A stretch of DNA of 26,245 nt from an uncultured Deinococcales bacterium. Lineage in GTDB: Bacteria > Deinococcota > Deinococci > Deinococcales > JAAFIG01. This document shows, in pieces, positions 2,350 through 25,814 of the stretch (position 1 is its first letter; every line of letters starts with the position of its first letter). The position numbers were made by a program, and so were the translations under genes. The DNA lies in assembly GCA_964244895.1 (NCBI GenBank), contig CAXTKV010000051.1, positions 1-26,245 on the forward strand. The letters are read 5' to 3'. The notes below the pieces were generated by a model, which was given only the letters and a program-made list of their open reading frames with translations, did no database searches and had not been told where the DNA came from.

Positions 2350-2400
2350 ACACCGTCTGGGACGCGAACAAAAGAATGCGTGCAAGATGGTCTCCTCGAG
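2350..2400. repeat. Paired-box intergenic element, 44-bp type (degenerate) plus terminal CTCGAG
   Basis: ACACCGTCTGGGACGCG...GCGTGCAAGATGGTCT (2350-2393), followed by C-CTCGAG. Confidence 0.7.
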
Positions 2401-2471
2401 ATGTCAGCGAAAGACGGGACGGGTTTAGGTTTTTGCGTACGCTTCGATTCGATAAGAACCGGGGTGACGAG

Positions 2472-2969
2472 CTACAACAGGAACGAACGAATCCCGAGCC
2501 GATCCATGACTCCGAACGCCCGTTTGAGCGCATCGAGCTGAACGGGTATCGCCAGTTGCTCGTCGCTTTGCGTGTCCAGGCACATCAATTCGTAGCCGCG
2601 TTGCCGAAACCACGGAGCCGCGCCGCTCAGCACCTCGAACACCTCTGTCGGAAGGGCTGAAACCGTACTGAGGAAGTGACCCTCGAGCCCCAGGGTGTGC
2701 GCCATTGCCTGGCATTGCCATTCGACCTGCTCGCTGGCTTTCCAGTCCACGCTCAGGAACAGCCACCAGCGGCAGTGCGATTCGTCCATCCACCAGCCTG
2801 CAGGGTATTCGGTCGGGTAATCCTGAAGGGCTTCCTTGAGGGCGTGCAGCTCGTCGCCGTACTCGTCTAGGGCTTGGCGGGTTTCCTCGAATCGCTCCCG
2901 AATCTGGCGGCACAGATCGGCTCGATTCACCTCGAGCGGCGAGAGGATGATGGCGAGCAGTTCGTCCAC
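2472..2969 (-). CDS. Hypothetical acidic protein (DWK motif; possibly DUF6630-like)
   Basis: 165-aa ORF filling the gap with protein-like composition (VDWK, RGYELMCLDTQSDE). The family assignment is from memory and is weak. Confidence 0.6.
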   Translation of the reverse strand: MDELLAIILSPLEVNRADLCRQIRERFEETRQALDEYGDELHALKEALQDYPTEYPAGWWMDESHCRWWLFLSVDWKASEQVEWQCQAMAHTLGLEGHFLSTVSALPTEVFEVLSGAAPWFRQRGYELMCLDTQSDEQLAIPVQLDALKRAFGVMDRLGIRSFLL

Positions 2970-3015
2970 GTCGAGATCACTCTACACACGTCTCAAAGAA
3001 TGGACAAGCTCAAAA

Positions 3016-3059
3016 ACACCGTCCAGCACGCGAATTTAGGCTTGCGTGCTGGACGGTGT
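3016..3059. repeat. Paired-box intergenic element, 44-bp type (perfect copy)
   Basis: ACACCGTCCAGCACGC-N12-GCGTGCTGGACGGTGT, a perfect 16-bp inverted repeat. Confidence 0.9.
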
Positions 3060-3082
3060 CCGTGATATCCGGTCAGGGCGGA

Positions 3083-4273
3083 TCAACCCAGCTTGGCTCG
3101 AGGCGGCTCGGGCAACCCGAGCGTCAGGAAAAATGCGGGGATCAACAGTGCGACCGTGGCCAGCATGGCGATCTCGGGCGATGTGGCTTTGGCCAGCCCC
3201 GCGAACAGGATGTAGACCACGCCCGCCGTGCCCCACGAAAACCCCATCATCAAGGCGCTGGCGGTGGCGTTGTGACCGGGCGCGTATTCCTGCGCGGCCA
3301 CGATCGCGACGGGAATCGTGGCATTGCCCAGCCCACCGACGATAAACGCCAGCGCCAGAAACGGCGCGAGGCCGATGCTGGACGGGGAAACCAGGATCAG
3401 CACCGCGAACAGCGGGATCAGCAAGCTGACGCTCGAGCGCAGGATCGTGACGCGCCCCAACCGATCCGAAAGCTGCCCGCCGACGATGCCGCCGATGGCG
3501 CTCGCCAGGCTGAAACTGGCCAGCGTAGCCGCGATCACGAAATCCGATTCGCCGCGCGCCTTGAAGACGAACGGAATCAAACTGCCGTAGGTCACTGTGG
3601 ACAGCGACCGCAGCACGCTGACGCCCCAGAGCGTGCGGATCGGGCCTTTGAAGACCTCCAGGTAATCCGAAAGTCCGCGCGTTTTGACGCGTGTAGGGTT
3701 TGCGGTTCGCGTGGACGGGGCCATTGCGAAGGTCGCCACGCCCATCGCCAGCCCGAGCGGCATCAGCCAGACCAGGCCGTGCAAGCCCAACGCGGTCGCC
3801 GTGAACGGCCCGAGCGCCAGCCCCGCCGTGCCGCCCGCGCTGAAAATGCTGGCGTACAACCCGCGTTTCGCCTGGTCGCTGTTGGCCGCCACGTAGGCCG
3901 CACCGGACGGGTGAAAGATCGCGCTGCCCAGACCGCCCAGCATGACCAGCAGTCCTAGAACGTAAACGTTCGGCGCGTAGCCCATCAAGGTCATGCCGAG
4001 CGCCGTCAGGATCGGCCCGGCGGCGGCCAGGTAGCGCCTGTCCACGCGATCGCCGATCGCGCCGAAAATCGGTTGAATCACGGAACCGACCAGCGCCAGC
4101 AGGCTGACCAGCACGCCCGTCTCGACCAGCGTGACGCGGTACGCGTCGGCGATGGCGGGTTGCAACGGCCCGAGCAGGCTGGTGAAGTTGTCATTCACGA
4201 AATGGCTGGCGGTCACCAGGCCAATCACGAGCGTTCTGCCCGCAGCGGCGGTGTTTCTGACGGTGGTGCTCAA
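3083..4273 (-). CDS. MFS transporter, Fsr (fosmidomycin resistance)-like
   Basis: About 12 hydrophobic segments. Motifs SHFVND, QPIFGAIGDR, SAIFHPSG and GGQLSDRLGR. TTG start overlaps the MOSC stop, with an AAGGAG RBS. Confidence 0.88.
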   Translation of the reverse strand: MSTTVRNTAAAGRTLVIGLVTASHFVNDNFTSLLGPLQPAIADAYRVTLVETGVLVSLLALVGSVIQPIFGAIGDRVDRRYLAAAGPILTALGMTLMGYAPNVYVLGLLVMLGGLGSAIFHPSGAAYVAANSDQAKRGLYASIFSAGGTAGLALGPFTATALGLHGLVWLMPLGLAMGVATFAMAPSTRTANPTRVKTRGLSDYLEVFKGPIRTLWGVSVLRSLSTVTYGSLIPFVFKARGESDFVIAATLASFSLASAIGGIVGGQLSDRLGRVTILRSSVSLLIPLFAVLILVSPSSIGLAPFLALAFIVGGLGNATIPVAIVAAQEYAPGHNATASALMMGFSWGTAGVVYILFAGLAKATSPEIAMLATVALLIPAFFLTLGLPEPPRAKLG

Positions 4274-4929
4274 CGGTTCTGCTCCTTTTTGAGTTGCCCC
4301 AGCCTCAGGTGCAATGGTCTGCGCCAGGCCAGCGCGAGTTCCGGGACGGACAAGAGTTTCTCGAGGTCATCGAGGTCGTCGCGCCCGTGGTGGCGGACGC
4401 GGTTGGCGTCTCGGATGCTGACGGCGTGCGCGGATCGCTCCAGCCGCACGAGTTCGTCGTTCGGGCCTACGCGCCCCGGCTCGAGGACGCGGAAGTACCA
4501 GCCCGTCAGTCCAGATTCCACCATCCAGGCCGTCAGCCTCGGCTCGCCGTGCAGCGCGGCGGGTTTGAAGCACGGCACGCGCGGCTGCGAAACCTGCACG
4601 ACACTGGAACCGACCCGGAACGTGTCTCCGATGCACACGCTTTCCTCGAGCAAACCCTCCGTGGTGAAGTTCTCGCCGAAGGCCGGCATCGCCAGCGCGC
4701 GTCCCAGACGGTCTCTCCAGTGCGCGTAATGTTCAGCTGGATAAACGTTCACGGCTTTGTCCGCGCCGCCGTGGTGTTTCGCGTCCGCCACCTGATCGCC
4801 GCGCAAACCCAGCGTGCCGAGCTCGATAACGTTTCCGATGGCTTCCCTGGCGATGGCGCTCTGGACGGTTTCCGCGCCGTGCGCCAACGCTTTGGGGCGT
4901 CCAATGTTGAGCGACACGATACGGCTCAC
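4270..4929 (-). CDS. MOSC domain protein (YiiM-like)
   Basis: Motifs GDQVAD-HHGG-DKAV, FGENFT, CIGDTFRVG, VSQPRVPC and TGWYFRVLEPG. GAGGGG RBS. Confidence 0.9.
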   Translation of the reverse strand: MSRIVSLNIGRPKALAHGAETVQSAIAREAIGNVIELGTLGLRGDQVADAKHHGGADKAVNVYPAEHYAHWRDRLGRALAMPAFGENFTTEGLLEESVCIGDTFRVGSSVVQVSQPRVPCFKPAALHGEPRLTAWMVESGLTGWYFRVLEPGRVGPNDELVRLERSAHAVSIRDANRVRHHGRDDLDDLEKLLSVPELALAWRRPLHLRLGQLKKEQNR

Positions 4930-4999
4930 GATTCGCCCCTCTCGACCCTGGAGGTCAACCGTTCAGCACGGTGGTCTCGAGACATCGAAATTCGTGTGC

Positions 5000-5081
5000 A
5001 GAAGCGCGAATAGCCCGTGAGGTGCTGTCCCATGAGCAAGAAGCGCGAATAGCCCGTGAGGTGCTGTCCCATGAGCAAGAA
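5000..5081. repeat. Perfect 39-bp tandem duplication
   Basis: AGAAGCGCGAATAGCCCGTGAGGTGCTGTCCCATGAGCA at 5000-5038 and 5039-5077, followed by AGAA. Confidence 0.95.
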
Positions 5082-5089
5082 CGGTCTTC

Positions 5090-6268
5090 TCATGCCTTCG
5101 CCGATTTCAGTGCGGGCTCGCGTTCGGGCACGAACACCGTCAGCGCGAGCGCGATCAGCGGCAAGAGCGAGATCAGCGTCATCGTGCTGGCCGTGCCGTG
5201 CGCGTCTGCGAACGCGCCCAGGGCTGCGACGCCCAAGCCCTGCGCCGCGTAGGTCGTGCCGAGCGACAAGCCGCCCGCCAGACCCAGGTTGGCGGGCATG
5301 GCCTCCTGGATCATGACCACGATCACCGGCCAGGCCGCGCTGATAAACGTGCCCGTGACGCCAATCGCCAACACCCGCAGCAGACCGTCGGTGTGCAGGA
5401 AGGCGAACAGCGCCAAGATCGTGATCACCAGGCTGCCCGCCATCACGACGCGCCGCCCGTACCGATCCGCCAGCGTGCCGCCCGCCAGATTGCCGATCAC
5501 GCCAGAGAGCGCCAGCACGGTCACGAGGAGCGCTGCCGCCTCAGGATTGAGCGCGCCGGACTCGTGAAAGAACAGCGGAATGAAGGTCTGAAGGCCCATG
5601 CTGACCGTGCCGCGCACCGCGATCAGCAGGATCAAAAACGCGACCAATCCGTAATTGTTCGCGGTGTTCGAGCTGGTCGCGCCACTTCCGACATCGCTGC
5701 GAACCCTCGAGATCACGCGCCACTGGCTCGCCAAGCCCACCAGCGCGAGGACCGTCGGTACGATCATCAACAGCCCGCCCGGCCTGCCCAGCTTCTGCGT
5801 CAGCACCGTCGCCAGGATTGGGCCGAGCGCGAAGCCGATGCTGCCGCCGGAAAAAAAGACGCTCACGCCAGTCGCTGGCCTGTCCGACATGAGCGCCCGC
5901 GCCCGAGCCAGCGCTTCGGGGTGAAACAACGCGCTGCCGATGCCGCTGACAATCACGGCTCCCAGCACCGTGATATAGGTCGGCCACCACAGCACGCTCG
6001 CCATCGCCAGCCCAGTCAGCAGGCAACCGATCCAGACGAGCGCCCGGTTCGGCTTGCGGTCACCCAGCAAACCGAAGATCGGTTGCGCCACCGCGATCAC
6101 GATGTTGTTGGCCGTGATGATCGCGGCGGCGCTGGCGTAATTCAAGTGCAATTGAGCGAACAACAGCGGCAGCAGCACCGCCAGAGACCCCGTGTGCATG
6201 TCCACGCTCGAGTGCGCGGCGCTGATGGCGAAGAGGCTCGGGCGGGTTTTGGTGGATGGTGTCTGCAT
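5090..6268 (-). CDS. MFS transporter, Fsr-like (paralogue of 3083-4273)
   Basis: Motifs AHSSVD, QPIFGLLGDR, SALFHPEA and GGTLADRYGRR. About 12 TM segments. GAGGA RBS. Confidence 0.88.
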   Translation of the reverse strand: MQTPSTKTRPSLFAISAAHSSVDMHTGSLAVLLPLLFAQLHLNYASAAAIITANNIVIAVAQPIFGLLGDRKPNRALVWIGCLLTGLAMASVLWWPTYITVLGAVIVSGIGSALFHPEALARARALMSDRPATGVSVFFSGGSIGFALGPILATVLTQKLGRPGGLLMIVPTVLALVGLASQWRVISRVRSDVGSGATSSNTANNYGLVAFLILLIAVRGTVSMGLQTFIPLFFHESGALNPEAAALLVTVLALSGVIGNLAGGTLADRYGRRVVMAGSLVITILALFAFLHTDGLLRVLAIGVTGTFISAAWPVIVVMIQEAMPANLGLAGGLSLGTTYAAQGLGVAALGAFADAHGTASTMTLISLLPLIALALTVFVPEREPALKSAKA

Positions 6269-6306
6269 CGTGTTCCTCGAGAAATAACGGTGAAAGAACC
6301 TGTCTT

Positions 6307-6364
6307 CGGGCTGGATGGCGTTTTTGAGAATCCTGAAAGGACTGTCCCAGACGGCCTTCTCGAG
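6307..6364. repeat. Paired-box element, direct type (degenerate, 36-bp spacing) ending in CTCGAG
   Basis: CGGGCTGGATG-GCGTTTTTGAG and TGTCCCAGACG-GCCTTCTCGAG. Confidence 0.55.
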
Positions 6365-6366
6365 AT

Positions 6367-6969
6367 TCAGCGATTGATCTCCAGTTCGGATTTCGGCGCG
6401 GTAGACGCGACCAGAAGCACGCGGGCGGCGCGCCCGATGGCGTCGGCGCGGTGTGGCAGTCGAGCATCGTAGTGGGCGCTGTCGCCGGGTTCCAGCGTGA
6501 AGGTCTCTTCAGAGACGCGCAGGCTCACGCGACCGTCCAGCACGAACATCAGTTCCTCGCTGTCGTGGTGGTTCATGTCGGTGTTGGTGCGCCGTGCGGG
6601 AATGTGGAGCAGCACCGCGTTCAAGTGCGATGGTCGCTCGCCGCCCGTCAAGGGCACGTACTCGAGTTCGTTGCCGGTGCTTCGGCTGCGCGTTCCAGCC
6701 CGCACGATGGTGACGTTCGAGGTCTTGTTCTCGGATGTTGAAGACTCGAACAGCGTGGCGAGCGGCAACTCGAAGGCTTGCGCCAGCGAGATCAAGGCCG
6801 CCAGCGACGGCTGGCGCTCGCCCGCTTCGAGTCGGCTCAGGTACGGCTGGGACAGATCGGCGCGGGCGCTCAGTTCCTCGAGCGTCCAGTCGCGTTCCGA
6901 GCGCAGGTTTTTCAGTCTCGGGCCGAGTCGCGCCAGTTCGGCTTCGAGGTCGGTGGTCGTTTCGGGCAC
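6367..6969 (-). CDS. XRE-family HTH transcriptional regulator with C-terminal cupin domain
   Basis: HTH motif LGPRLKNLR..WTLEELS..LSQPYLSRLEAGERQPS. Cupin motifs HHDSEE..VLDG and LEPGDSAHYDARLPH. TAAGCT -10 box lies 6 nt before the GTG. Confidence 0.92.
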   Translation of the reverse strand: MPETTTDLEAELARLGPRLKNLRSERDWTLEELSARADLSQPYLSRLEAGERQPSLAALISLAQAFELPLATLFESSTSENKTSNVTIVRAGTRSRSTGNELEYVPLTGGERPSHLNAVLLHIPARRTNTDMNHHDSEELMFVLDGRVSLRVSEETFTLEPGDSAHYDARLPHRADAIGRAARVLLVASTAPKSELEINR

Positions 6970-6975
6970 GCCCTG

Positions 6976-7037
6976 AGCTTACGGGGAATCTTGTCCGTCA
7001 GGCAAGAAGTCGAATAAAGATTGTCAGCTAGGCAAGA
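6976..7037 (-). promoter_or_regulatory. Leaderless promoter of the XRE gene with two palindromic operator-like sites TTGTC-N5-GGCAAGA
   Basis: -10 TAAGCT (6976-6981) and -35-like TTGCCT (7000-7005). Sites at 6991-7007 and 7021-7037 are 30 bp apart. Confidence 0.65.
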
Positions 7038-7063
7038 TGGCTGATCTCGAGCTCGACGCGAAA

Positions 7064-7107
7064 ACACCGTCCGGCACGCATTCTTGAATATACGTCCAGG
7101 ACGGTGT
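7064..7107. repeat. Paired-box intergenic element, 44-bp type
   Basis: ACACCGTCCGGCACGC...CGTCCAGGACGGTGT. Confidence 0.85.
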
Positions 7108-7201
7108 CCTTCAACGACGAGCGTTCGAGCACCTCGCCCCGGACGCTTTCGTCGGCGAGGTGCGACCCACGAGAACGTGCGCGCGATGGTGTTTTAGAGC
7201 G

Positions 7202-8290: not shown

Positions 8291-8345
8291 GGCATGACTC
8301 TATCGCGTCCTGGATCGGCCCGTCTCGAGCCGACGATTCGAGAAA

Positions 8346-8389
8346 ACACCGTCCGGTGCGCAAATCAGGAATGTCGTGCTGGACGGTGT
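8346..8389. repeat. Paired-box intergenic element, 44-bp type
   Basis: ACACCGTCCGGTGCGC...CGTGCTGGACGGTGT, preceded by TTCGAGAAA. Confidence 0.85.
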
Positions 8390-8495
8390 TCCCGGCTTTC
8401 ATCAATCCCGGCTCCGGGCTTTTAAGCGCCAACGCGACCTCCTTTACCCGGCGAAAGCCGTCTGGCACGCAATTCCCTGGTGGTACGCTTGAACC

Positions 8496-9719: not shown

Positions 9720-9898
9720 GTCGTCGCTGCGCCCCGATTCCGGCACTACCGCTCGAGAAAACCTCGCCTTTTGCCGCTTGCGCATTCTTGCAAATCAAGC
9801 TGGAGCGTTCGGCGCGACGAAGAGTGAAACCTGTAAAGACCGTCCAGTACGGCATTCCTACCGATTCGCGCCCGAGTATAAACCGACCGGCCCAAGCC

Positions 9899-9927
9899 TT
9901 GACACCTTTTCGGGGGCGGTTTACAAT
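9899..9927 (+). promoter_or_regulatory. Near-consensus sigma70-type promoter of the tRNA operon
   Basis: TTGACA-N17-TACAAT, 25 nt upstream of tRNA-Asp. Confidence 0.88.
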
Positions 9928-9952
9928 CCAGTGCCTCTCGGAGGGGTCGTGT

Positions 9953-10361: not shown

Positions 10362-12866
10362 ATGTTCGTTCGTCTGAAACGATTTGTGCCGATTATCGCA
10401 CTGTCTTGGTTGCTCACCGCTTGCCCACAACTGACCGCCCCCGCCGAACTGAGCGTGACACCCTCGAGCCTAACGCTCAATACGGGCGACAACCCCGTCA
10501 ATTTGAACGCCGCCTTGAAGAATTCAAGCGCGACCATCACATGGTCGCTGGCAGGAGAAGGAAACCTGACCGCGACCACGGGTGCGGTCGTACAGTACGT
10601 TCCACCATCTGCTCTGGACGACCAGAAGACGGCCACCATCGTCGTGAGTGCGGGTGCGTTAGCGCGCACGATCACCGTCACTATCAAACCCAGACCCAAC
10701 CTGTTTGTCAGTCCTGAAAACCCCACCCTTTCCGCAGGAGGCGCAGCGTTCGAGTTCACTGCGCGCCTAGATCACGCGACCGGAGAGATCAACTGGACGC
10801 TCTCTGGCCCAGGAGCGCTCAGCGCCACGACGGGCTCGAGCGTGCGCTACACACCACCCGCAACCCTGTCCGATGCCACTGCCGCGACCCTAACCGCGAC
10901 CGCATCTGGCCTGAGCGTCAGCGTTACCATCGCCCTCGCGCCGTCGCAAACGGGCATCGTACTGAACCCGCTGGCTGCGACGCTGACCGCTGGTGATGCC
11001 CCCGTGAACTTCAACGCTGCCCTCACCAACTCAGGCGACACCATCTCATGGACACTCTCAGGGCCGGGCGTTATTGATGTCACGACTGGCTCGAGCGTGC
11101 GCTACACGCCACCAGCAACCCTGGACACCGAGCAGACCGCGACCCTGACGGCGAGCGGTGCAGGCTTGTCCCGAAGCGCCCAGATCACGATCAAACCGCG
11201 ATCAAAACTGACAGTTGCGATCACCAGCCCGACTGGAACGGTCTACTCGCGCGATGCGGTCACCGTCCAGGTCAACGTTTCCGGCGGCGCACCGGAAACC
11301 GTAGAACTCCTGCGCGATGGAAACCCGCTCGCCACGCTCGTACCGCCCTATCAGTACACCTGGAATGTCACCAACGAACCCGAAGGAGCGTACCACCTGA
11401 GCGCCCGCGCAAAACGCGGCACTGAACGTTTCGACTCGAGCGCTAACCTGACGGTTAACGTTGACCGTACCCCACCTGCAATCGCGGCTCGCACCCCCGC
11501 GCCCAATGCGACAGACGTAGCGCGCAACGCACCGATCACCATCGGGTTCTCGGAATCGCTCGAGCCCTCGAGTGTCAATGATGCCAGTCTGACGCTCACT
11601 CAGAACGGTTCCCCTGCGACGCGAACGGTACAACTCTCGAGCGACGGTCGTACCATCACCGTCACGCCCGCGACGAATCCTGAACCCACGACCGTGTACG
11701 CAATCAGTTTGACAAACCTGCGCGACCGAGCCGGGAATACCGTGTCTGCTGCGTGGACGTGGACGGTTCCTGACTGGCTCGAGTTCGGATACTTGGGGCA
11801 GGGAGAGCATTTTGGATGCAGTCAGTTGAAACTGGATTTCAAAGACCGACCTGTCGTGTATTGCGTGAACTTGATTGGTGGTTACGTTTATGGCTCTGTT
11901 CAACGCCTGACCAACGGTGCTTGGGAATCACTCGGTGGAGGAGCATTCAACACTGAAACGACGCAAAGTGTGCTGGCTGCAAAATTCGCTCTCAGGGCTG
12001 ATGGAACGCCCGTCGTAGCATCCATAGAAACCACTGGAACTACGAATGTCGTCTATGTTAAAGAATTGCGCGCAGGAACCTGGGTTTCTTTGGGGGGGCC
12101 GCTCAATATTGATCTCTCGAGGCAACTGGATACCTCATCACTCGATATTTCGCTCGACACGAACGGCTTGCCGATTGTCGCATTTATCGAAGCGAGCAAA
12201 ATGTATGTTCGACGTTTTCAATCGGGTTCTTGGATGACTCTAGGAGGCGATGCTGTACCCAACGCATCACCAACCGGATACTCAGCGCCAGCAAGTCCAA
12301 AGATCTTAATTCTTGCAGATGGTTCTGTCCACGCATTCTGGCAGACTTTTGAATCTGCGTATGTCACTAACATTTTTCATCAGAAATGGAGCGGATCATG
12401 GGCTACTGAAATTGGGTTCGGCAGTTATAGCATTTTTAACTACGAACCATTCTTTTATTCGAGTGGAATTCTACTCTTAAAGCTCGGCTCGGGTCGTTCG
12501 GGTTACTACGGAACGAACGTCGGGGTAGAAAAACTGAATGGATTGGGTGGGCAATATTTCAGCATTTCGAGTTCAGGTAGATCAGCAGGTTTGTCAAGTA
12601 ATGCAGTCATTTCTACTGATGGAGTCCTGTACACTGCCTATTTGCAAAGTCAGTCAGGATATCCCGGATTTCAAGGGTATGACGTGTTCGTGAGTGCTTT
12701 AACGAGTGATGTGTCCAAGTCTGTTGGTACTTCTCTTGAAAGCAACGCCACTACTCCTGTAGATTATGCGCCGACTAAGTTGTATATCGCCCTTGACTCT
12801 ACTAACACTCCTGTCGTCGCTATCGTGGGTTCGGCAAGATTGATTCTGAAACGCTATAACCGTTGA
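10362..12866 (+). CDS. Large surface lipoprotein: three internal Ig-like repeats, two further bacterial Ig-like domains and a divergent C-terminal beta-rich domain
   Basis: Lipobox LLTAC. Three roughly 82-aa repeats (I-x-W-[ST]-L-x-G-x-G...TTG-x-x-V-x-Y-x-PP). Ig-like segments TVAITSP..YQYTWN..GAYHLSARA and DRTPP..P..NATDV..PITIGFSE. Confidence 0.85.
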   Translation: MFVRLKRFVPIIALSWLLTACPQLTAPAELSVTPSSLTLNTGDNPVNLNAALKNSSATITWSLAGEGNLTATTGAVVQYVPPSALDDQKTATIVVSAGALARTITVTIKPRPNLFVSPENPTLSAGGAAFEFTARLDHATGEINWTLSGPGALSATTGSSVRYTPPATLSDATAATLTATASGLSVSVTIALAPSQTGIVLNPLAATLTAGDAPVNFNAALTNSGDTISWTLSGPGVIDVTTGSSVRYTPPATLDTEQTATLTASGAGLSRSAQITIKPRSKLTVAITSPTGTVYSRDAVTVQVNVSGGAPETVELLRDGNPLATLVPPYQYTWNVTNEPEGAYHLSARAKRGTERFDSSANLTVNVDRTPPAIAARTPAPNATDVARNAPITIGFSESLEPSSVNDASLTLTQNGSPATRTVQLSSDGRTITVTPATNPEPTTVYAISLTNLRDRAGNTVSAAWTWTVPDWLEFGYLGQGEHFGCSQLKLDFKDRPVVYCVNLIGGYVYGSVQRLTNGAWESLGGGAFNTETTQSVLAAKFALRADGTPVVASIETTGTTNVVYVKELRAGTWVSLGGPLNIDLSRQLDTSSLDISLDTNGLPIVAFIEASKMYVRRFQSGSWMTLGGDAVPNASPTGYSAPASPKILILADGSVHAFWQTFESAYVTNIFHQKWSGSWATEIGFGSYSIFNYEPFFYSSGILLLKLGSGRSGYYGTNVGVEKLNGLGGQYFSISSSGRSAGLSSNAVISTDGVLYTAYLQSQSGYPGFQGYDVFVSALTSDVSKSVGTSLESNATTPVDYAPTKLYIALDSTNTPVVAIVGSARLILKRYNR

Positions 12867-12886
12867 TCTTTTCACACTGGAGGAAC

Positions 12887-13273
12887 ATGAACAAGTACGT
12901 CGTGTTGTCTTTTGTCGTCGCGGTGTTGGCGGGCTGCAACAGTCCACCGCCAGCACCTTCGATCTCGAGCGTCGTCGTCACGCCCACCACGGCGTCCTGC
13001 TCGGTAGGCGGAACGCAACCGTTCGTTGCCGTGGCGCGCGACGCGAACGGATTGAGCCTCAACCCGCAACCGTCGTTCTCGTGGGCTTCGAGCCTGCCCT
13101 CGGTAGCGGGCGTAGACGCGGGAAGCGGGCTGGCCTCTTGTCAGGGCGCGGGCGTCACGAACGTTACGGCCAGCGCGGGTGGTGTGACCTCGAGTCCGGC
13201 ATCGTTGACGGTCGCGGCGGGAGGGGCGCGATTCGACAGCGCGAAGTTCGATCAGGCTGTGTTCAATCCATAG
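12887..13273 (+). CDS. Small lipoprotein with one Ig-like (Big_2-type) domain and C-terminal FDSAKFDQAVFNP motif
   Basis: GGAGG RBS before the ATG at 12887 (preferred over TTG 12863). Lipobox LAGC. Big_2-type pattern SVVVTP...FVAVARDANG...FSWASS-PSVA-VD--GL. Confidence 0.85.
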   Translation: MNKYVVLSFVVAVLAGCNSPPPAPSISSVVVTPTTASCSVGGTQPFVAVARDANGLSLNPQPSFSWASSLPSVAGVDAGSGLASCQGAGVTNVTASAGGVTSSPASLTVAAGGARFDSAKFDQAVFNP

Positions 13274-13280
13274 CGAATGC

Positions 13281-13337
13281 CGTCCAGGATGGAGTTCTGC
13301 ACCAACTGAAATGTGCGCTCTAGACGGTGCTTTCGAG
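13281..13337. repeat. Paired-box element, direct type (35-bp spacing)
   Basis: CGTCCAGGATG (13281-13291) and CGCTCTAGACG (13316-13326), then GTGCTTTCGAG. Confidence 0.6.
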
Positions 13338-13364
13338 TGTGCTTGAGTTTAAAAGGGGAATCGA

Positions 13365-14273
13365 ATGAAGACAGCCAAGCAGTTTCGGAACGTTGTGATC
13401 GGTTTCGCTTTGGGTTCGTTGGGCGTATACGCGCTGGCCGTGACGATCCCGAACACATTCACTGGCGGCCAAACGATCAGCGCCGCCTTATTCAACGCGA
13501 ACTTTGTCTCCCTCAAGACCGCCGTGGACGCGCTCGAGGCCAACGGCTCAGTCACTACCGCGCGTCTGGCAGATGGGTCGGTCACGGCGGGCAAGTTCTC
13601 CGCTTCGGGAGGCGCGGACGGCAAGGTACTGAAGCTTCAAGGCGGGAGCCTTGCCTGGGGCGACGACCAGGTCGGTACGGGCGGTGGCACGGCGTACACG
13701 GCGACGGATGGCGTGGCCTTGAATGGATCGCAGTTCAGCCTGGCGAATGGTGGCGTCTCGAGCGCCAAACTGGCGGATGGAGCGGTGTCTAGCGCGAAAC
13801 TGGCGGACAATTCCGTCTCGAGCGCGAAGACCAGCAACGAGCCGGGGATCGCGGCCAGTCGCAGCAACCGGAGCAATTTCATTTCGAGCACACAGAGCGT
13901 TTCGGACGTGGTTTCGGCTTCGATCACCACGCCGGATGCCGGGCAGATCATCGTGGATGCGAGCTTCCAGGCGGGTTTGCAGGGCACGGCGGGTGCGAAG
14001 TGTTTCATCAACGCGCAGATTGACGAGACGCCGGGCGGTTCGATCGATCTAGATAACAGTTACGCGGTCGGTTTTGATACCTTGCCGAACGCGAGCTTGA
14101 TCTATTTGCCGTACGCCACGCGCCGTATCTACCAGAAAGCTGCCGGGTCGTACACGTTTCGGCTCGAGGCGCTCAAGTCTGCTGACGCGGGTTGCTCGAG
14201 CGCGGACGCTTGGAATCCGCGCATTACGGTGATGTATGTGCCGACGACCTACGGCGCGGTGGTCACGAATTGA
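13365..14273 (+). CDS. Secreted protein with tail-fibre-like N-terminus and LADG(A/S)V(T/S)xAK decapeptide repeats
   Basis: AAGGGGAA RBS. Signal peptide ending in ALA. VTIPNTFTGGQTISAALFNANF segment. 30-bp tandem repeats at 13740-13829. Confidence 0.8.
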   Translation: MKTAKQFRNVVIGFALGSLGVYALAVTIPNTFTGGQTISAALFNANFVSLKTAVDALEANGSVTTARLADGSVTAGKFSASGGADGKVLKLQGGSLAWGDDQVGTGGGTAYTATDGVALNGSQFSLANGGVSSAKLADGAVSSAKLADNSVSSAKTSNEPGIAASRSNRSNFISSTQSVSDVVSASITTPDAGQIIVDASFQAGLQGTAGAKCFINAQIDETPGGSIDLDNSYAVGFDTLPNASLIYLPYATRRIYQKAAGSYTFRLEALKSADAGCSSADAWNPRITVMYVPTTYGAVVTN

Positions 14274-14333: not shown

Positions 14334-14471
14334 ACCGCTGAGCTCAATCTCACACGGTGGGTCTTACAAATTTCTTACTCGTTATTCAACTTCTGGGGTT
14401 TCCGGCTGATCTACCACACGCCGTCCAGCGCGGGCTCGAGATGACTCGAGTTGTGTTTGCGTGACCGACCT

Positions 14472-15006: not shown

Positions 15007-15047
15007 GGTTGCGTGCGGATCCTCAAGGCTCGAGACGTTGGGGAGAC

Positions 15048-15104
15048 CGTGCTGGACGGCATTCTTCGAGATCGAAACTGTGCGTCCAGGACGGTGTTCT
15101 CGAG
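15048..15104. repeat. Paired-box element, direct type (35-bp spacing) ending in CTCGAG
   Basis: CGTGCTGGACG (15048-15058) and CGTCCAGGACG (15083-15093), then GTGTTCTCGAG. Confidence 0.8.
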
Positions 15105-16256: not shown

Positions 16257-16300
16257 ACACCGTCCAGCACGCGTTTTGTGAATAGCGTGCTGGATGGTGC
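16257..16300. repeat. Paired-box intergenic element, 44-bp type
   Basis: ACACCGTCCAGCACGC-N12-GCGTGCTGGATGGTGC. Confidence 0.88.
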
Positions 16301-16447: not shown

Positions 16448-16491
16448 ACACCGTCCAGTACGAACTTCTTCCCTCGCGTGCCCGACGGTGT
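16448..16491. repeat. Paired-box intergenic element, 44-bp type
   Basis: ACACCGTCCAGTACG...GCGTGCCCGACGGTGT. Confidence 0.85.
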
Positions 16492-18294: not shown

Positions 18295-18340
18295 TCGGCA
18301 AGGTTTCTGGTGTGTCACCCGCTGTGAATGCTGCTGCAAC

Positions 18341-18387
18341 GCGTCCCGAACGGTGTTCTCGAGAAGAAGACCTTCTGGAACGGTGTC
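18341..18387. repeat. Degenerate boxes of the intergenic family with CTCGAG
   Basis: GCGTCCCGAACGGTGTTCTCGAG and CTTCTGGAACGGTGTC. Confidence 0.6.
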
Positions 18388-18415
18388 GCGCTGAAAACCG
18401 GTCGCGAGTCCGCCC

Positions 18416-18982: not shown

Positions 18983-19032
18983 GCCGCCATTCTACGTCGC
19001 ACTTCAAGGTCATCTGTACTCGAGAAAAAAGG

Positions 19033-19097
19033 GAGAACACCGTCAGGTACGGTGTTCTCGAAGGGCTGAAATCCGCGTCCAGGACGGTCTTCTCGGG
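19033..19097. repeat. Fully symmetric single box plus a second box at 35-bp spacing
   Basis: GAGAACACCGT-CAGGT-ACGGTGTTCTC (19033-19059) and CGTCCAGGACG (19076-19086), then GTCTTCTCGGG. Confidence 0.85.
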
Positions 19098-19104
19098 ATT
19101 ATGT

Positions 19105-20085: not shown

Positions 20086-20155
20086 CGGGCTCGAGTGTGA
20101 CAGCCTTGGCTGCGGTTGGAATCCGGGTTTTGGCGTAGGCCAGCGTCTTTGCGGC

Positions 20156-20947: not shown

Positions 20948-20956
20948 GGCCAAGTC

Positions 20957-21007
20957 CTCGAGAACACCGTCCTGGACGATGTCCCTATCTTGCGTGCCAG
21001 ACGGTGC
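20957..21007. repeat. Paired-box intergenic element, 44-bp type with CTCGAG
   Basis: CTCGAGA-ACACCGTCCTGGACG...GCGTGCCAGACGGTGC (core 20964-21007). Confidence 0.85.
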
Positions 21008-21029
21008 GTAAAACCTTCACCAGTCAACG

Positions 21030-22010
21030 TCACTTGCTCGAGTCGCGCTTGGCGGATTCGCTGATCGCGCCGCGCATGGACGTGTCGGCCTGGATGTTCT
21101 GCATGTTGTAGTAATCCATCACGCCCAGCTTGCCGCTCCTGAAGGCTTCACTGAGCGCCATCGGAACCTGCGCTTCGGCCTCGACGACCTTGGCGCGCAT
21201 CTCCTGGACGCGAGCCTGCATTTCCTGCTCCTGCGCGACCGCCATCGCGCGGCGCTCCTCGGCTTTGGCCTGCGCGATGCGCTTGTCGGCCTCGGCCTGA
21301 TCGGTTCTGAGCTGCGCGCCGATGTTCTTGCCGACATCCACTTCCGCGATGTCGATCGAAAGAATCTCGAAGGCCGTACCCGCGTCCAATCCCTTGGCCA
21401 GCACCGTCTTTGAAATCTTGTCCGGGTATTCCAGAACTTCCTTGTGCGAGACCGCGCTGCCGATGCTGGCGACGATGCCTTCACCGACGCGCGCGATGAT
21501 GGTTTCCTCGCCCGCGCCGCCGACCAGTCGGTCGATCTTGACGCGCACCGTGATGCGGGCTGTGGCCAGCAACTGAATGCCGTCCTGCGCCATGCCCTGC
21601 ACCATCGGGGTCTGGATGACCTTCGGGCGCACGGAAACCTGCACGGCTTCCAGCACGTCTCGGCCCGCCAGGTCAATCGCGGTGGCCTGATCGAAGGACA
21701 GCGGGATTCCGGCCTTGTCCGCCGCGATCAGCGCGTCAACAACTTTATCCACGTCGCCACCCGCCAGGAAGTGCGCCTCGAGCTTGTTCTGACCGACATC
21801 TTTCAGGCCCGCCTTGCGCGCCTTGATCAGCGGGTAAATGATCCGCGATGGTGCGACGCGCCGCAACTGCATCCCGATCAGGCTGGGCAACGGAACCAGC
21901 ACCCCGGACGCGACCGCAGAGATCCAGATCCCCAGGAACCTCCAGATGTAAGAGACGATGATGAGTACGAGTATGGCGACGATGATGATCAGAACCGTTG
22001 ATGTTGACAT
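21030..22010 (-). CDS. floA: Flotillin-like protein FloA (YqfA family)
   Basis: Motifs [58 protein letters not shown] and [12 protein letters not shown]. Confidence 0.95.
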
Positions 22011-22076
22011 TCAGTCTTCCCCTTTCGAGATTGAGCGATTGATGCGAGATGAACTTGAGTCTGTTCAAAAAACTCT

Positions 22077-22146
22077 TGACGGTATTCCCGAGAATACGCG
22101 AACCTCGACCGAGCTAAGAGACGCCGTCAGGTGCGGTGTTCTCGAG
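22077..22146. repeat. Degenerate boxes of the intergenic family with CTCGAG
   Basis: TGACGGTATTCCCGAG and AGACGCCGTCAGGTGCGGTGTTCTCGAG. Confidence 0.65.
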
Positions 22147-22161
22147 CATCGAATCTTCGGT

Positions 22162-23493
22162 TCACGTCCGCACGGATTTGACCACGACCCGGCGCCCCTC
22201 GACCCGCACGACCTCGAGCGAGGTTCCGACCGCGATGAATTCGCCGTCCGCCACGACATCGACGCGTTCGCCCTCGATGTCGGCCACGCCGGAAGGCCGC
22301 AGATCCGACAAGGCGCGCCCGTAGCGGCCCATCAGGTTCGGCCTGATGTTGCTGGTGCTGCCCGTCGCGGTGTTCCCCTCAAGGCTGGTCGCCAGCGCGA
22401 ACCGCCGCGTCAACGTGCTGGACGGTAGCAACCAGAACGCCAGCCCGATCCCCACGCCCGTCAGGATCACGGCCAATCCCGCCACCAGCGGGAAATCGCT
22501 GCCGAATTGCAGGTAGATGCTCGCCAGGATGCTGCCTGCGCCCAACAACCCGACGACCGTGGAACCGGGAATCAGCACCAGTTCCGCGCCCAGCAACAGC
22601 AACCCGGCGATCAAGAGCAGCAGCGCCACGCTCGAGCCGTTGCCCGCCAGGAACGACCCGCCGAAGTACGCCAATAACGCCACGCCGCCGACCACGCCGG
22701 GCAGGGCCACGCCTGGATGCAGCAATTCGATCAGGATGCCGATCACGCCGATGGCCAAGAGGATGGCCGCCACGATCGGTTGGGACAGGAACGCGCCGAG
22801 TTGCTCGGCGCTGGAAAGTTCAACTCGTTCGAGCTTGACTTTGCTGAACCCCGCCGAGCGCACCGCGTCCTCGAGCGTGCGCGCTTCTAGGTTGGCGACT
22901 TTGTATTTCACCGCATCGCTCGAGGTCAGCGTCAGGATCTCGCCCTTGTCCTTCAGGCCGGGAATGACCTTGTTCGGGCTGACCATGCCCTCGGCGGCGT
23001 CCGCGTTGCGCCCGCGCGTCTCGGCCACGCTGCGGAATTTGGTGCGCAGGGCGCTGTTGATTTTCTCGCCGACATCGCCTTCCAGCGCCTGACCATTGCC
23101 CGTGATCGGCAGGGCCGCGCCGATCTCGCTGCCGGGCAGCATGGCGACGCTTTCCGCGCTCATGGCGATCAGTGCGCCCGCGCTGAAGGCGTTGGTCACG
23201 ACCGCGACCGTGGGCACTGACGATGACACGATCCGATCCGACATGGCGATGGCGCTGTCCACGCGCCCGCCTGGGGTGTCCACGTCCAGCACCACGACGG
23301 GCACGTTGGCGGCTTCCGCCGCGTCGAGTTGCCTGTCCAGAAACGTCGCTAGGGCAGGGTTGATCTCGCCCTCGATTTTGATGATGCGTCCCGGCGTGGC
23401 CGGGTTCGCGGCCTGAGTTTGCCCACGGGCGAGGCCGATTAAACCCACCACGGCAAAGACGGCCAGGGCGAGCAGCTTCCATTGCGTTCTCAT
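22162..23493 (-). CDS. nfeD: Long-form NfeD family membrane-bound serine protease (YqeZ-like)
   Basis: Signal peptide, ClpP-like domain (DTPGG, AFSAGALI), TM region and C-terminal OB-fold (LRPSG...ERVDVVADGEFI). Confidence 0.92.
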   Translation of the reverse strand: MRTQWKLLALAVFAVVGLIGLARGQTQAANPATPGRIIKIEGEINPALATFLDRQLDAAEAANVPVVVLDVDTPGGRVDSAIAMSDRIVSSSVPTVAVVTNAFSAGALIAMSAESVAMLPGSEIGAALPITGNGQALEGDVGEKINSALRTKFRSVAETRGRNADAAEGMVSPNKVIPGLKDKGEILTLTSSDAVKYKVANLEARTLEDAVRSAGFSKVKLERVELSSAEQLGAFLSQPIVAAILLAIGVIGILIELLHPGVALPGVVGGVALLAYFGGSFLAGNGSSVALLLLIAGLLLLGAELVLIPGSTVVGLLGAGSILASIYLQFGSDFPLVAGLAVILTGVGIGLAFWLLPSSTLTRRFALATSLEGNTATGSTSNIRPNLMGRYGRALSDLRPSGVADIEGERVDVVADGEFIAVGTSLEVVRVEGRRVVVKSVRT

Positions 23494-23574
23494 CGTTCCT
23501 CAATCTACGCGTTCGGGCGCGCCAGCGTTCCCCCAAAGCTCACACTCGAGGGTCACGAGGGGCTCGAGAATTTG

Positions 23575-23594
23575 AAAACACCGTCCTGAACGCG
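23575..23594. repeat. Single box of the intergenic family
   Basis: AAAACACCGTCCTGAACGCG. Confidence 0.65.
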
Positions 23595-23644
23595 AGTCCC
23601 GACCCGATCACGCTCGGGTCACGCTCTCTCCTTAAACTCGTACC

Positions 23645-24685
23645 ATGCGATGGAAGCTTCCTTGGATCGGTCTGATCGCCGCGTTCGCGTTCGTCTCGGT
23701 GGCTCAGGACGCCGGGTACACCATCGAGCGGCGCGCCGTCAAACTGGGCTCGAGACTGATTTCCGCGACCATCGTCCGGGCGTCACGCGATCGATTCCGC
23801 CTCGGCGTGAGTATCGCCAACGGTCTGGTCGGCGGTGCGGCTTCTCTGGCCAGCATGGCATCCCGAGCGAAGGCCGTCTGCGCCATCAACGGCACCTTCC
23901 TGGCCGCCTACGAGGGGCAGACCGGAGAACCGTACGGCACGCTCGCGGTCGGCGGGAAGTGGTTGCACCTGGGCAGCGCCGGGACGCGGCTGGACGTGCT
24001 GGATGACGGCTCGATTCGGTTCTCTCGGGACGATCTGCGCGTGCTGGGCAGCCTGGACGGGTCGGTAAACTATCCGAATAACTGGTACGCTTACGGCATC
24101 AACCAATCGCCGCAGAACGCGAACTCGAGCTACGTTTTCACGCCGGAACGCGGTTCCAAGCTGGGTTTCCGAGCGCCCTTCGCGGCGATCGTGCGGAACG
24201 GCTTCGTGGTGCGCGTGGCCAAGGGTGAAGACGCGCAGATCCCCACGGACGGCTTCGTGATTGCGCTCTCCGGTAACGAAATCGATCAACTCGGCTCGAG
24301 ATTGACCGTCGGTCGCGGCGTCGCGTACCGCGTGGACTCGCGCTCCGGGCAACCGCTGAACGGCGTGCAGTACAGCCTGGGGGCTGGGCCGAAGCTGGTC
24401 ACAGGCGGCGCGATCAGCCTGAATCTGGAATCTGAGGGTTTCCGGTCATCGAAGATTCTGAGCGAACGCGGCGCGCGCAGCGCCGTCGGATTGAACGCCA
24501 CAGAACTCATCCTCGCGACCATCACCGACGCGACCGTGCGCGACGAGGCCGCCGTTATGGGGCAACTCGGTGCGACGGACGCCATGAACCTCGACGGCGG
24601 AGCCTCGAGCGCGCTGTGGTGCGGCGAGGACATCGTGGTGGGCGGTCGCAAGGTTCCCAACGCGCTGGTGCTGTGGAAAAAATAG
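23645..24685 (+). CDS. Secreted phosphodiester glycosidase family protein (NAGPA-like)
   Basis: Signal peptide. Motifs AINGTF, GAGPKLV, ARSAVG and AMNLDGGASS. TAAACT lies 6 nt before the ATG. Confidence 0.9.
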   Translation: MRWKLPWIGLIAAFAFVSVAQDAGYTIERRAVKLGSRLISATIVRASRDRFRLGVSIANGLVGGAASLASMASRAKAVCAINGTFLAAYEGQTGEPYGTLAVGGKWLHLGSAGTRLDVLDDGSIRFSRDDLRVLGSLDGSVNYPNNWYAYGINQSPQNANSSYVFTPERGSKLGFRAPFAAIVRNGFVVRVAKGEDAQIPTDGFVIALSGNEIDQLGSRLTVGRGVAYRVDSRSGQPLNGVQYSLGAGPKLVTGGAISLNLESEGFRSSKILSERGARSAVGLNATELILATITDATVRDEAAVMGQLGATDAMNLDGGASSALWCGEDIVVGGRKVPNALVLWKK

Positions 24686-24694
24686 GGGAGAGGG

Positions 24695-24745
24695 CTCGAG
24701 AACGCCGTCCTGGACACGGTTTGATGATTGCGTCCAGGACGGTGT
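24695..24745. repeat. Paired-box intergenic element, 44-bp type with CTCGAG
   Basis: CTCGAGA-ACGCCGTCCTGGACAC...GCGTCCAGGACGGTGT (core 24702-24745). Confidence 0.88.
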
Positions 24746-24883
24746 CGCCGTGACCTACCCGTCGCGCCTCGAACCCCGTGGAGCGCGAGAGCGACCTCGG
24801 TCTCGCCGCCGGGCGGAGGAAAGGACGGCTGATTGCTCGACGCGACTCGAGATGCCCGCGAAGGGCGCGGTAAACTCGCTCAC

Positions 24884-25723
24884 GTGACCATCGAAACCCG
24901 AGCCTTCCTGTTCGCGCACCCGGCGCGGCACTCGCTTTCGCCCGCGATGCACGACGCGGCGCTCAAAGCGATGGGTATTCCGGCGCGGTACGAGGCCAGG
25001 GACGTGCCGCCGGATCAGCTCAGAACTGCCCTGAACGCTTTGCGCGGGTCAAACATCTGGGGCGTGAACCTGTCCATCCCGCACAAGGAGCGCGCGTTTG
25101 AAATCGTGGACGACGTTTCCGAAGATGCGCGCGCCATCGGTGCGATCAATACGGTGATCGTGCGCGGCGACAGGCTCGAGGGGCGCAACACGGACGCGCC
25201 GGGCTTCATCGAGGGCTTGCGCGAGTCGGGCGTGGTCATTCCGGTGGCTGCGGTGACGGTTCTGGGGGCCGGCGGTGCGGCTCGCGGCATCGTCTGGGCG
25301 CTCCAACGCGCGGGCGCGGCCTGGGTCAAGGTCTGGAACCGCAACGTTGATCGCGCCGTGCGGCTGGCCGAGGAATTTGGTGCGACCGCCGTCTCGGACG
25401 ATGAACTCGAGGCTGCCGTGGTCGAATCCGATCTCCTGGTCAACACGACCAGCGTGGGTCTCGAAGACCCCGATGTCTCGCCGTTGCCGCCGGGATGGCT
25501 GCCTTCTGGATCGTGGTTCCCGGACGGCCCGGTCGTTTGCGACATCGTCTACCGCCCGCTCGAGACGCGGCTTTTGCGCGAGGCTCGAGAGGCCGGGTTG
25601 ACGACCGTGGATGGGCTGGGCATGCTCGTCCACCAGGGCGCGTTGGCGCTCGAGGCGTGGACGGAACGGGACGTTCCAGTGGACGCGATGCGCCGCGCCG
25701 CGCTGGGCGCGCTCGGGCATTGA
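24884..25723 (+). CDS. aroE: Shikimate dehydrogenase
   Basis: Motifs HSLSP-MH, GVNLSIPHK, GAINT, NTD, GAGGAAR, DIVYRP and DGLGMLVHQG. Start re-assigned to GTG 24884 (TAAACT lies 7 nt upstream). Confidence 0.95.
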   Translation: MTIETRAFLFAHPARHSLSPAMHDAALKAMGIPARYEARDVPPDQLRTALNALRGSNIWGVNLSIPHKERAFEIVDDVSEDARAIGAINTVIVRGDRLEGRNTDAPGFIEGLRESGVVIPVAAVTVLGAGGAARGIVWALQRAGAAWVKVWNRNVDRAVRLAEEFGATAVSDDELEAAVVESDLLVNTTSVGLEDPDVSPLPPGWLPSGSWFPDGPVVCDIVYRPLETRLLREAREAGLTTVDGLGMLVHQGALALEAWTERDVPVDAMRRAALGALGH

Positions 25724-25765
25724 TAAGACGTTGGAAGGTCTGCTGGCTCGTGAGCTCTGACCGAC

Positions 25766-25814
25766 GCACCGTCCAGCACGCGACCCCAAATGCGCGTCTG
25801 GGACGGTGTTCTCG
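25766..25814. repeat. Paired-box intergenic element, 44-bp type
   Basis: GCACCGTCCAGCACGCG...CGCGTCTGGGACGGTGT-TCTCG (core 25766-25809). Confidence 0.85.

What the first reader, a model, noticed from the sequence alone, without database searches (positions are those of the whole stretch)
2350..25814. Intergenic paired-box element with fixed geometry: probably a protein-bound DNA site rather than an RNA hairpin
Seen: about 18-20 copies in 26 kb, all intergenic, in tandem, convergent and divergent gaps. Consensus is (CTCGAGA)ACAC-CGTCCWGSACG-C-N12-G-CGTSCWGGACG-GTGT(TCTCGAG). Nine copies span exactly 44 bp from ACACC to GGTGT (starts 2350, 3016, 7064, 8346, 16257, 16448, 20964, 24702, 25766). 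The central spacer differs in every copy. In several copies (7064, 8346, 20964, 25766) the two arms are different variants that pair poorly, so length is conserved while base-pairing is not. Each arm is itself an 11-bp pseudo-palindrome CGT-N5-ACG, and a fully symmetric single unit exists at 19033-19059. Inference: this fits a high-copy site for a dimer-of-dimers DNA-binding protein (nucleoid organiser, global regulator, recombinase or domesticated transposase) better than a terminator or classical REP. I do not recognise the family.
Basis: partly seen in the sequence, partly recalled or inferred. Interest (0 to 1): 0.85.

Follow-up and report, generated by a model that had tools for sequence, protein, structure and literature searches.

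The report
Evenly spaced, helix-phased DNA box pairs
The genome of an uncultured relative of Deinococcus carries about 3,000 evenly spread copies of a short DNA box, mostly in pairs of two lengths that differ by one turn of the double helix, and these are likely landing sites for an unidentified chromosome-organising protein rather than an ordinary jumping repeat.

Summary
The element is real and genome-wide. The genome is an uncultured Deinococcales assembly holding about 5,500 boxes in about 3,400 loci; 7% of strong boxes lie inside genes. No comparable excess was seen in 363 other phylum genomes.

Box pairs sit 25/26 or 35/36 bp apart (89% of 1,974 pairs), with minor peaks at 30/31 and 41. 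This ladder follows the DNA helix. Loci fall about one per intergenic gap whatever its length and avoid each other below about 1 kb. Boxes inside genes appear preferentially far from other loci, some by amino-acid-changing substitution with no insertion.

I found no RNA-strand bias, no U-tract, no target duplication and no Y1 transposase. The 25-bp class does show moderate arm covariation, and one in-frame whole-element insertion exists.

Best reading (0.45): sites for a cooperatively binding, two-fold-symmetric chromosome protein, not identified. Rivals are a REPIN-like mobile relic (0.25) and an uptake or recombination signal (0.2). The scan noted this family earlier on another piece of the same genome and called it ordinary REP-like; the spacing tests here argue it is more than that.

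The parts
2350..2393 (.). box pair, centres 25 bp apart
3016..3059 (.). box pair, 25 bp
4956..5087 (.). box pair, 35 bp, with one box split by two tandem copies of an unrelated 39-bp unit (about 5004-5081)
6303..6357 (.). box at 6348 (16 bits) with a weak partner (9 bits) 36 bp away
7064..7107 (.). box pair, 25 bp
8346..8389 (.). box pair, 25 bp; a related organism's contig aligns to exactly 8389 and then diverges
8455..8473 (+). single box (16 bits) upstream of the aminopeptidase-like gene
9837..9855 (+). single box (22.5 bits) upstream of two tRNA genes
13277..13330 (.). box pair, 35 bp
14418..14436 (+). weak single box (12.6 bits)
15044..15097 (.). box pair, 35 bp
16257..16300 (.). box pair, 25 bp
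16448..16491 (.). box pair, 25 bp
18338..18386 (.). box pair, 30 bp (minor class)
20964..21007 (.). box pair, 25 bp, in the short gap downstream of floA between co-oriented genes
23578..23596 (+). single box (24.8 bits) in a divergent gap
24702..24745 (.). box pair, 25 bp
25766..25809 (.). box pair, 25 bp
4696..4714 (-). single box (17.8 bits) inside the MOSC-domain gene 4270-4929

Best explanation
The boxes are likely binding sites, on double-stranded DNA, for an abundant two-fold-symmetric protein of this genus that binds two boxes cooperatively on the same face of the helix and is predicted to organise the chromosome at about one site per 1-1.5 kb. Shown: the box (AAcACCGT-cc-n-gs-ACG, often followed by TT at +9/+10) is a degenerate palindrome with fixed ends and a loose centre. 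Second boxes occur at 25/26 or 35/36 bp. Loci come about one per gap and avoid each other below about 1 kb. Boxes inside genes arise preferentially far from other loci. Sites were gained both by substitution in place and, at least once, by insertion of a whole pair. The 25-bp pairs in convergent gaps probably double as hairpins. The protein was not found.
For: Spacing counts: 25 (833), 26 (140), 30/31 (57), 34-36 (835), 41/42 (42), against about 4 per distance at 50-130 bp. The two main peaks average 25.1 and 35.2 bp. Both lengths occur with the same inner-flank types, and unpaired boxes have weak partners at the same distances. No strand signal: G-U versus A-C mismatches 247 v 244 on the transcript strand, no 3' T excess, and 35-bp pairs fold no better than chimeric arms. 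Orientation against transcription shows no bias in the main classes. One per gap: 1,626 of 2,290 gaps hold exactly one locus against 957 +/- 22 under random placement; 4 hold three or more against about 111. Locus-to-locus distances of 300-1000 bp are depleted (382 observed v 518 after permuting among like gaps). Coding boxes rise from 14 to 117 per Mb with distance from the nearest intergenic locus. Four of five decoy matrices show no rise and one about twofold; stratified z = 4.6. PheT, MiaA and one MetH pair align gap-free to 5 of 5 family orthologs, and PheT lost a Cys kept in all five. Nearest-neighbour distances among 827 copies are close to a genealogy-free simulation (5.3 v 5.5-5.6 mismatches). 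Two contigs of related species keep a pair of the same length class at the orthologous gap with a diverged spacer.
Against: No protein was identified. HU paralogue number does not track the element. One small, basic candidate with highly-expressed codon usage is in 12 of 18 relatives that lack the box. Even spacing and gain inside genes are also expected of uptake sequences. 11 of 62 aligned coding boxes have 6 or more extra residues nearby (control 2.3%), and one is a clean 17-residue whole-element insertion, which shows unit movement. Arm covariation in the 25-bp class is real (17% perfect arms v 6%). Stretches of 39-55 kb do without any box. Gap statistics rest on my own gene caller, which missed two likely genes in the window (10362-12866, 12863-13273). 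Only 1 of 6 gene-length bins in the direct neighbour test was significant. In the 300-900 bp gene class the gap-filling trend is absent, on 13 hits.
Confidence: 0.45

Rival explanations
1. A REPIN-like non-autonomous mobile element: an inverted doublet that was copied and inserted as a single-stranded hairpin by a transposase now lost or unassembled, and that persists in free intergenic space.
For: Inverted doublets with unique spacers in a few length classes are REPIN features (PMC3337134). It lies just after stop codons (median 19 bp) and favours convergent over tandem over divergent gaps, as REPs do (PMC3733652). It is lineage-specific. There is moderate arm covariation at 25 bp and an in-frame whole-element insertion in a P-type ATPase. 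A separate GTAG-type repeat family in this genome also lacks a detectable Y1 gene, so the missing enzyme proves little in a 91% complete assembly.
Against: REPIN doublets are randomly distributed in extragenic space (PMC3116915); these are strongly under-dispersed. REPIN spacers fold into the hairpin, whereas here inner positions +7 to +9 pair less than shuffled and 35-bp pairs show almost no covariation. There is no GTAG tag, and the CGTC is part of a 3-4 bp pseudo-stem, not an unpaired tag before an 8-9 bp stem. There is no target duplication and little copy genealogy. Gap-free gains inside genes need no insertion.
Confidence: 0.25
2. A self-DNA signal for uptake or homologous recombination, driven up by biased gene conversion like the uptake sequences of Neisseria and Haemophilus; a second phased box raises receptor affinity.
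For: About one locus per 1.4 kb, evenly spaced, missing from island- and plasmid-like contigs, and placed in poorly conserved coding positions (identity 0.28 at strong boxes v 0.60 gene-wide). These match features reported for DUS (PMC2397512). ComEC is present. Drive explains amino-acid changes in core genes more easily than weak selection on each site.
Against: Uptake sequences are non-palindromic, 35-65% lie in ORFs and about 10% are inverted pairs (PMC1939737). Here the box is a degenerate palindrome, 4-7% of strong boxes are in genes and 71% (3,927 of 5,492) are paired. ComEC is in 17 of 18 relatives without the box, so it does not discriminate.
Confidence: 0.2
3. An RNA hairpin acting as a bidirectional terminator or 3' stabiliser.
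For: Stop-proximal position. Mean fold energy is about -24 kcal/mol for 25-bp pairs. Perfect core complementarity is 50% in convergent gaps against 32% in tandem and 29% in divergent gaps.
Against: No G-U preference or U-tract on the transcript strand. It occurs in 62-73% of divergent gaps over 200 bp and between genes that look co-transcribed (window floA region; L022). A hairpin gives no reason for loop lengths of exactly 14-15 or 24-25 nt.
Confidence: 0.07
4. A neutral product of repair or replication errors at palindromes, for example 10-bp stepwise trimming by SbcCD plus template switching.
For: E. coli SbcCD cuts hairpin stems at about 10-bp intervals (PMC4787754 abstract); template switching would give the arm covariation seen at 25 bp.
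Against: It does not explain one locus per gap, gap-filling inside genes, or conservation above the flanks in related organisms. That activity was reported on a 110-bp substrate and changed on shorter ones.
Confidence: 0.03

Closest known systems
REPINs (Pseudomonas fluorescens SBW25) and GTAG/CGTC REP dimers
   Same: Inverted doublets, lineage-specific, intergenic and stop-proximal, unique spacers in discrete length classes, occasional in-frame copies in genes.
   Different: No tag-plus-stem REP unit, spacer does not extend the hairpin, lengths form a helical ladder, distribution is one per gap rather than random, and no RAYT was found.
Neisserial DUS and Pasteurellaceae USS
   Same: Thousands of copies, even spacing, absence from recently acquired DNA, gain in permissive coding positions, inverted pairs after stops.
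   Different: Palindromic and degenerate, mostly paired, far rarer in genes, helically phased pairs; no receptor identified.
Cyanobacterial HIP1
   Same: Hyper-abundant palindrome under selection with a proposed nucleoid role (PMC5861425 abstract).
   Different: HIP1 is an exact 8-mer with 10-90 kb periodicity. The better HIP1 analogue in this genome is CTCGAG (21,883 copies, family-wide), not the box.
E. coli BIME-1/BIME-2, matS and similar protein-bound chromosomal repeats (recalled from memory, not read here)
   Same: Repeats bound on duplex DNA by architectural proteins with fixed geometry.
   Different: Tens to hundreds of copies rather than thousands; different sequence; no IHF-type consensus was tested in the spacer.

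Membership tests
GTAG/CGTC REP | unpaired GTAG or CGTC tag followed by its own stem-loop (8-9 bp stem, 4-5 nt loop, CCA tail for CGTC) | tested here: not met
   box consensus against the definition in PMC3733652
GTAG/CGTC REP | mostly intergenic, near 3' ends, convergent and tandem gaps favoured | tested here: met
REPIN | over-represented inverted doublets at preferred distances, stronger than singlets | tested here: met
   mean score 22.1 paired v 17.6 single, partly inflated by chance singles
REPIN | spacer organised to extend the hairpin, with compensatory changes | tested here: not met
   inner positions pair at or below shuffle level; covariation only in the boxes of the 25-bp class
REPIN | doublets randomly distributed in extragenic space | tested here: not met
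   1,626 one-locus gaps v 957 +/- 22
REPIN | cognate RAYT (Y1) gene flanked by the repeat | tested here: inconclusive
   no PF01797 match in this 91% complete genome. 16 of 18 relatives have Y1 matches; the 12 loci examined look like IS200-type genes and none has a box nearby
REPIN | mobility as a unit (excision or insertion) | tested here: inconclusive
   one clean in-frame insertion and an excess of extra residues against gap-free gains; no empty allele among the listed joints of one related organism
IS-derived MITE | target-site duplication and near-identical copies | tested here: not met
   CTCGAG on both flanks 12 v 26 expected, no consistent direct-repeat excess; 826 of 829 44-mers distinct
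DUS/USS | evenly spaced, absent from recently acquired DNA, in permissive coding sites | tested here: met
DUS/USS | non-palindromic motif with a third to two thirds of copies in ORFs | tested here: not met
   310 of 4,363 strong boxes in genes v 35-65%
DUS/USS | enhances DNA uptake through a surface receptor | not testable with these tools
   the PF16732 search rang nowhere, controls included, so it is uninformative
intrinsic terminator | G+C stem followed by a U-tract on the transcribed strand | tested here: not met
Rfam RNA family | match at gathering score | tested here: not met
   only two tRNAs in the window
sequence-specific nucleoid protein site | direct binding by an abundant chromosomal protein | not testable with these tools
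   no candidate protein tracked the element

The most novel reading that the evidence does not exclude
One Deinococcales genus has evolved its own chromosome-wide address code: thousands of helically phased paired sites, held at about one per kilobase by a saturating force strong enough to rewrite core proteins. It is read either by a new sequence-specific nucleoid organiser or by a third, independently evolved self-DNA uptake or recombination system.
Probability: 0.55. Interest if true: 0.85.

Novelty: new variant of a known kind. Interest (0 to 1): 0.64.

Why it matters
Why bacteria keep thousands of short lineage-specific repeats (REP, DUS/USS, HIP1) is an old open question. This family offers unusually sharp handles: a helical ladder of pair distances, one locus per gap, and gap-filling inside genes, with sister genera that lack it altogether. 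It would reveal either a sequence-specific nucleoid system at near gene-level density, or a self-DNA signal outside Neisseriaceae and Pasteurellaceae.

Tried and rejected
Rfam: nothing but tRNAs.

Enzyme searches in this genome: Y1 transposase and IS110 transposase gave none. Tyrosine recombinases gave 11 matches, whose flanks I did not examine.

Reader candidates: HU paralogues number 3 here and 1-3 in relatives, with 3 in genus g2 that lacks the box. A codon-bias screen and a Pfam scan of 20 picked candidates gave no specific candidate. Only one of them was tested across the family, and it is widespread. The ComP family search was uninformative.

Viral contigs gave none. Metagenome contigs gave only two.

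Sequencing runs: no RNA holder was listed. Two DNA runs of one study hold a related organism at about 91-94% identity; most differences and joints were not displayed, so empty alleles could not be excluded.

Other tests: the target-duplication test was negative. Origin/terminus bias was not testable on 328 contigs; the dnaA contig has typical density (1.09 v median 1.05 boxes per kb).

Literature: searches listed no paper whose title or abstract start describes this element, helically phased REP doublets, or CTCGAG excess in Deinococcota. The library lacks most subscription papers, and I read no supplements.
Full report
Source. The window is contig C51 of a 5.12-Mb, 328-contig assembly, 91% complete. 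Its tmRNA tag matches Deinococcus species. The family holds 18 other genomes in four other genera, and no other member of its own genus was returned.

Observation. All nine 44-bp copies are where stated. A weight matrix built from 3,945 seed matches gives 7,109 strand hits at 12 bits, against about 407 in a Markov control. These are 5,492 distinct boxes in 3,444 clusters: 1,891 doublets, 1,478 singles and 75 larger. About 400 of the hits may be chance. The box has nearly fixed AA at -10/-9, ACCGT at -7 to -3 and ACG at +3 to +5, a loose centre and frequent TT at +9/+10. A 13-letter core pattern occurs 2,060 times here and at most 32 times in any of 363 other phylum genomes, the same order as its reversed control.

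Geometry. Distances between box centres are quantised: 833 at 25, 140 at 26, 39 and 18 at 30 and 31, 43, 582 and 210 at 34, 35 and 36, 31 and 11 at 41 and 42, with about 4 per distance from 50 to 130. Of 1,974 adjacent pairs within 45 bp, 1,758 are at 25, 26, 35 or 36. The main peaks differ by 10.1 bp and the minor ones by about 11, so the ladder follows the helix, with the minor classes half a turn off. Both main lengths occur with the same inner-flank types, so the long class is not one derived subfamily. Among 776 strong unpaired boxes, weak partners pile up at the same distances (84 at 25, 48 at 35). That this reflects protein dimers touching on one face of the helix is inference from established behaviour of cooperative DNA-binding proteins.

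RNA or DNA. In the 25-bp class the arms covary: cores are perfectly complementary in 36.5% against 17.2% shuffled, and rare variants are sometimes compensated. In the 35-bp class the figures are 12.1% against 8.2%. Inner spacer positions pair less than shuffled, because the spacer is asymmetric. On the transcribed strand of stop-proximal tandem copies, G-U and A-C mismatches are equal (247 v 244 at 25 bp) and there is no 3' T excess. Orientation against transcription is unbiased in the two large classes; one subgroup of 41 in the 26-bp class was 29 to 12. Convergent gaps have more perfect arms (50% v 32% and 29%), so some 25-bp copies probably also act as hairpins. Rfam has no match.

Placement. 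With my own gene caller (4,597 genes, 81% coding; it missed two likely genes in the window), 310 of 4,363 boxes at 16 bits or more lie in genes. Pairs sit a median 19 bp from stops and 101 bp from starts. Mean loci per gap approach 1 for gaps of 300-600 bp whether the gap has zero, one or two stops. For this and the next tests I left out contigs under 0.6 boxes per kb. Among 2,290 gaps of 100-800 bp, 1,626 hold exactly one locus against 957 +/- 22 under random placement, and 4 hold three or more against about 111. Permuting occupancy among gaps of like type and length shows depletion at 300-1000 bp and excess at 1-3 kb; the median distance is 1,445 bp. The direct neighbour test was significant in one of six gene-length bins (350-500 bp, odds ratio 0.2), with odds ratios at or below 1 in the rest. 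Island- and plasmid-like contigs carrying transposases, conjugation genes or ParA have few or no boxes over up to 55 kb (gene identities read by eye).

Boxes in genes. Strong coding hits exceed synonymous-codon controls (86 v about 18 at 20 bits). 46 pairs lie in genes, 38 of them at 25, 26, 30 or 34-36 bp. Their rate rises from 14 to 117 per Mb with distance from the nearest intergenic locus. Four of five decoy matrices show no rise and one about twofold; stratifying by gene length and distance to gene end leaves 59 far hits against 42.7 expected (z 4.6), though short genes show no trend. Six pairs were aligned to family orthologs. PheT, MiaA and the second MetH pair are gap-free, and PheT replaces a Cys kept in 5 of 5 relatives with residues that spell the box. 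An FAD enzyme differs by two residues, and two pairs lie in length-variable loops. Systematically, 62 of 242 coding boxes could be aligned to the 2.17 Mb of relative DNA fetched. 34 have no indel nearby; 11 have six or more extra residues in this genome (control 2.3%; the two boxes of a pair count separately); identity at strong boxes is 0.28 against 0.60. One P-type ATPase has 17 extra residues that correspond to a whole pair. So both gain in place and insertion occur, and I could not resolve their shares.

Age and mobility. 826 of 829 44-mers are distinct. Nearest-neighbour distances are close to a genealogy-free simulation, with a small excess of near-identical copies (70 at 0-2 mismatches v 38 and 29). 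Other repeat families in the same genome are over 90% identical among copies. No target duplication is seen. Two metagenome contigs at 77-80% identity keep a pair at the orthologous gap, 25 v 25 and 36 v 35 bp, with diverged spacers; they were found by the pattern, and most gaps here are occupied, so this is modest support. In one sequencing study a related organism aligns across the 2350 and 3016 copies and to the last base of the 8346 copy before diverging. At the 7064 copy its alignment stops mid-element and resumes 41 letters short, which I could not interpret.

CTCGAG. It occurs 21,883 times here and is 17- to 30-fold over-represented in samples of all eight relatives examined, which lack the box. 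It tends to sit 11 bp from the box centre, where the box's own pyrimidine flank supplies half of it. It is a separate, older feature.

No Y1 or IS110 transposase was found; 16 of 18 relatives have Y1 matches. HU paralogues, a codon-bias screen and one tested candidate gave nothing specific. ComEC is present family-wide.

Comparison with the literature. I read passages of PMC3733652, PMC3116915, PMC3337134, PMC2397512, PMC1939737 and bioRxiv 10.1101/2025.10.24.684340, and only the abstracts of PMC5861425 and PMC4787754. The element works partly like a REPIN in architecture and position, but fails the tag-and-stem, hairpin-spacer and random-distribution features. It works partly like DUS/USS in spacing and coding gain, but fails on palindromy, pairing and coding share. 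BIME and matS are recalled, not read.

Verdict. A real, genus-restricted, chromosome-wide element whose geometry and distribution point to selection on duplex DNA sites read in phased pairs. The chromosome-organising role is the most likely single mechanism (0.45); the mobile-relic (0.25) and uptake or recombination (0.2) readings stay open, and a mobile origin is compatible with later retention as binding sites.

Noticed in passing
window 5004-5081; about 101 units genome-wide; also G003, G004, G005, G006, G007, G015 loci: A 39-bp unit, two tandem copies here, splits a box at one fixed position; 31 of 101 units have the left part of a box as their 5' flank. Its two variable 5-6 nt segments change together between variants, units nest in one another, and it occurs in sister genera that lack the box. 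A related organism's contig is about 78 letters shorter here, suggesting recent insertion. No IS110 gene was found.
   Followed up: partly
whole genome and family relatives: CTCGAG is hyper-abundant (one per 234 bp here; 17- to 30-fold over expectation in eight relatives), in coding DNA too, like cyanobacterial HIP1.
   Followed up: partly
G000 C100:16873-17044 and about 50 other regions: A separate repeat family of GTAG-type palindromes inside conserved terminal inverted repeats, with no Y1 transposase detected in the assembly.
   Followed up: no
G000 C167:11667-11807 (13 regions) and C128:11237-11363 (5 regions): Two further MITE-like families of about 130 bp, over 90% identical among copies.
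   Followed up: no
L103 (G004 metH linker): A GTAG-type palindrome sits in frame in the same MetH linker in which G000 carries a box pair.
   Followed up: no
G000 C10:5198-5500: A third HU paralogue with stronger highly-expressed codon bias than the canonical HU, flanked by boxes on both sides.
   Followed up: partly
G000 C258:1094-1573 (L198): A 159-aa basic protein with no Pfam match, conserved at 58-82% identity in 12 of 18 family genomes.
   Followed up: partly
window 10362-14273: A box-poor stretch with a lipoprotein of repeated Ig-like domains and a protein with short 10-residue repeats; my gene caller scored the first two genes as atypical, which may mean foreign origin.
   Followed up: no
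G000 C36:23011-30636, C50:1-9676, C139: Box-poor regions carry a type I-C CRISPR-Cas locus and BREX-like genes (mostly read by eye).
   Followed up: no
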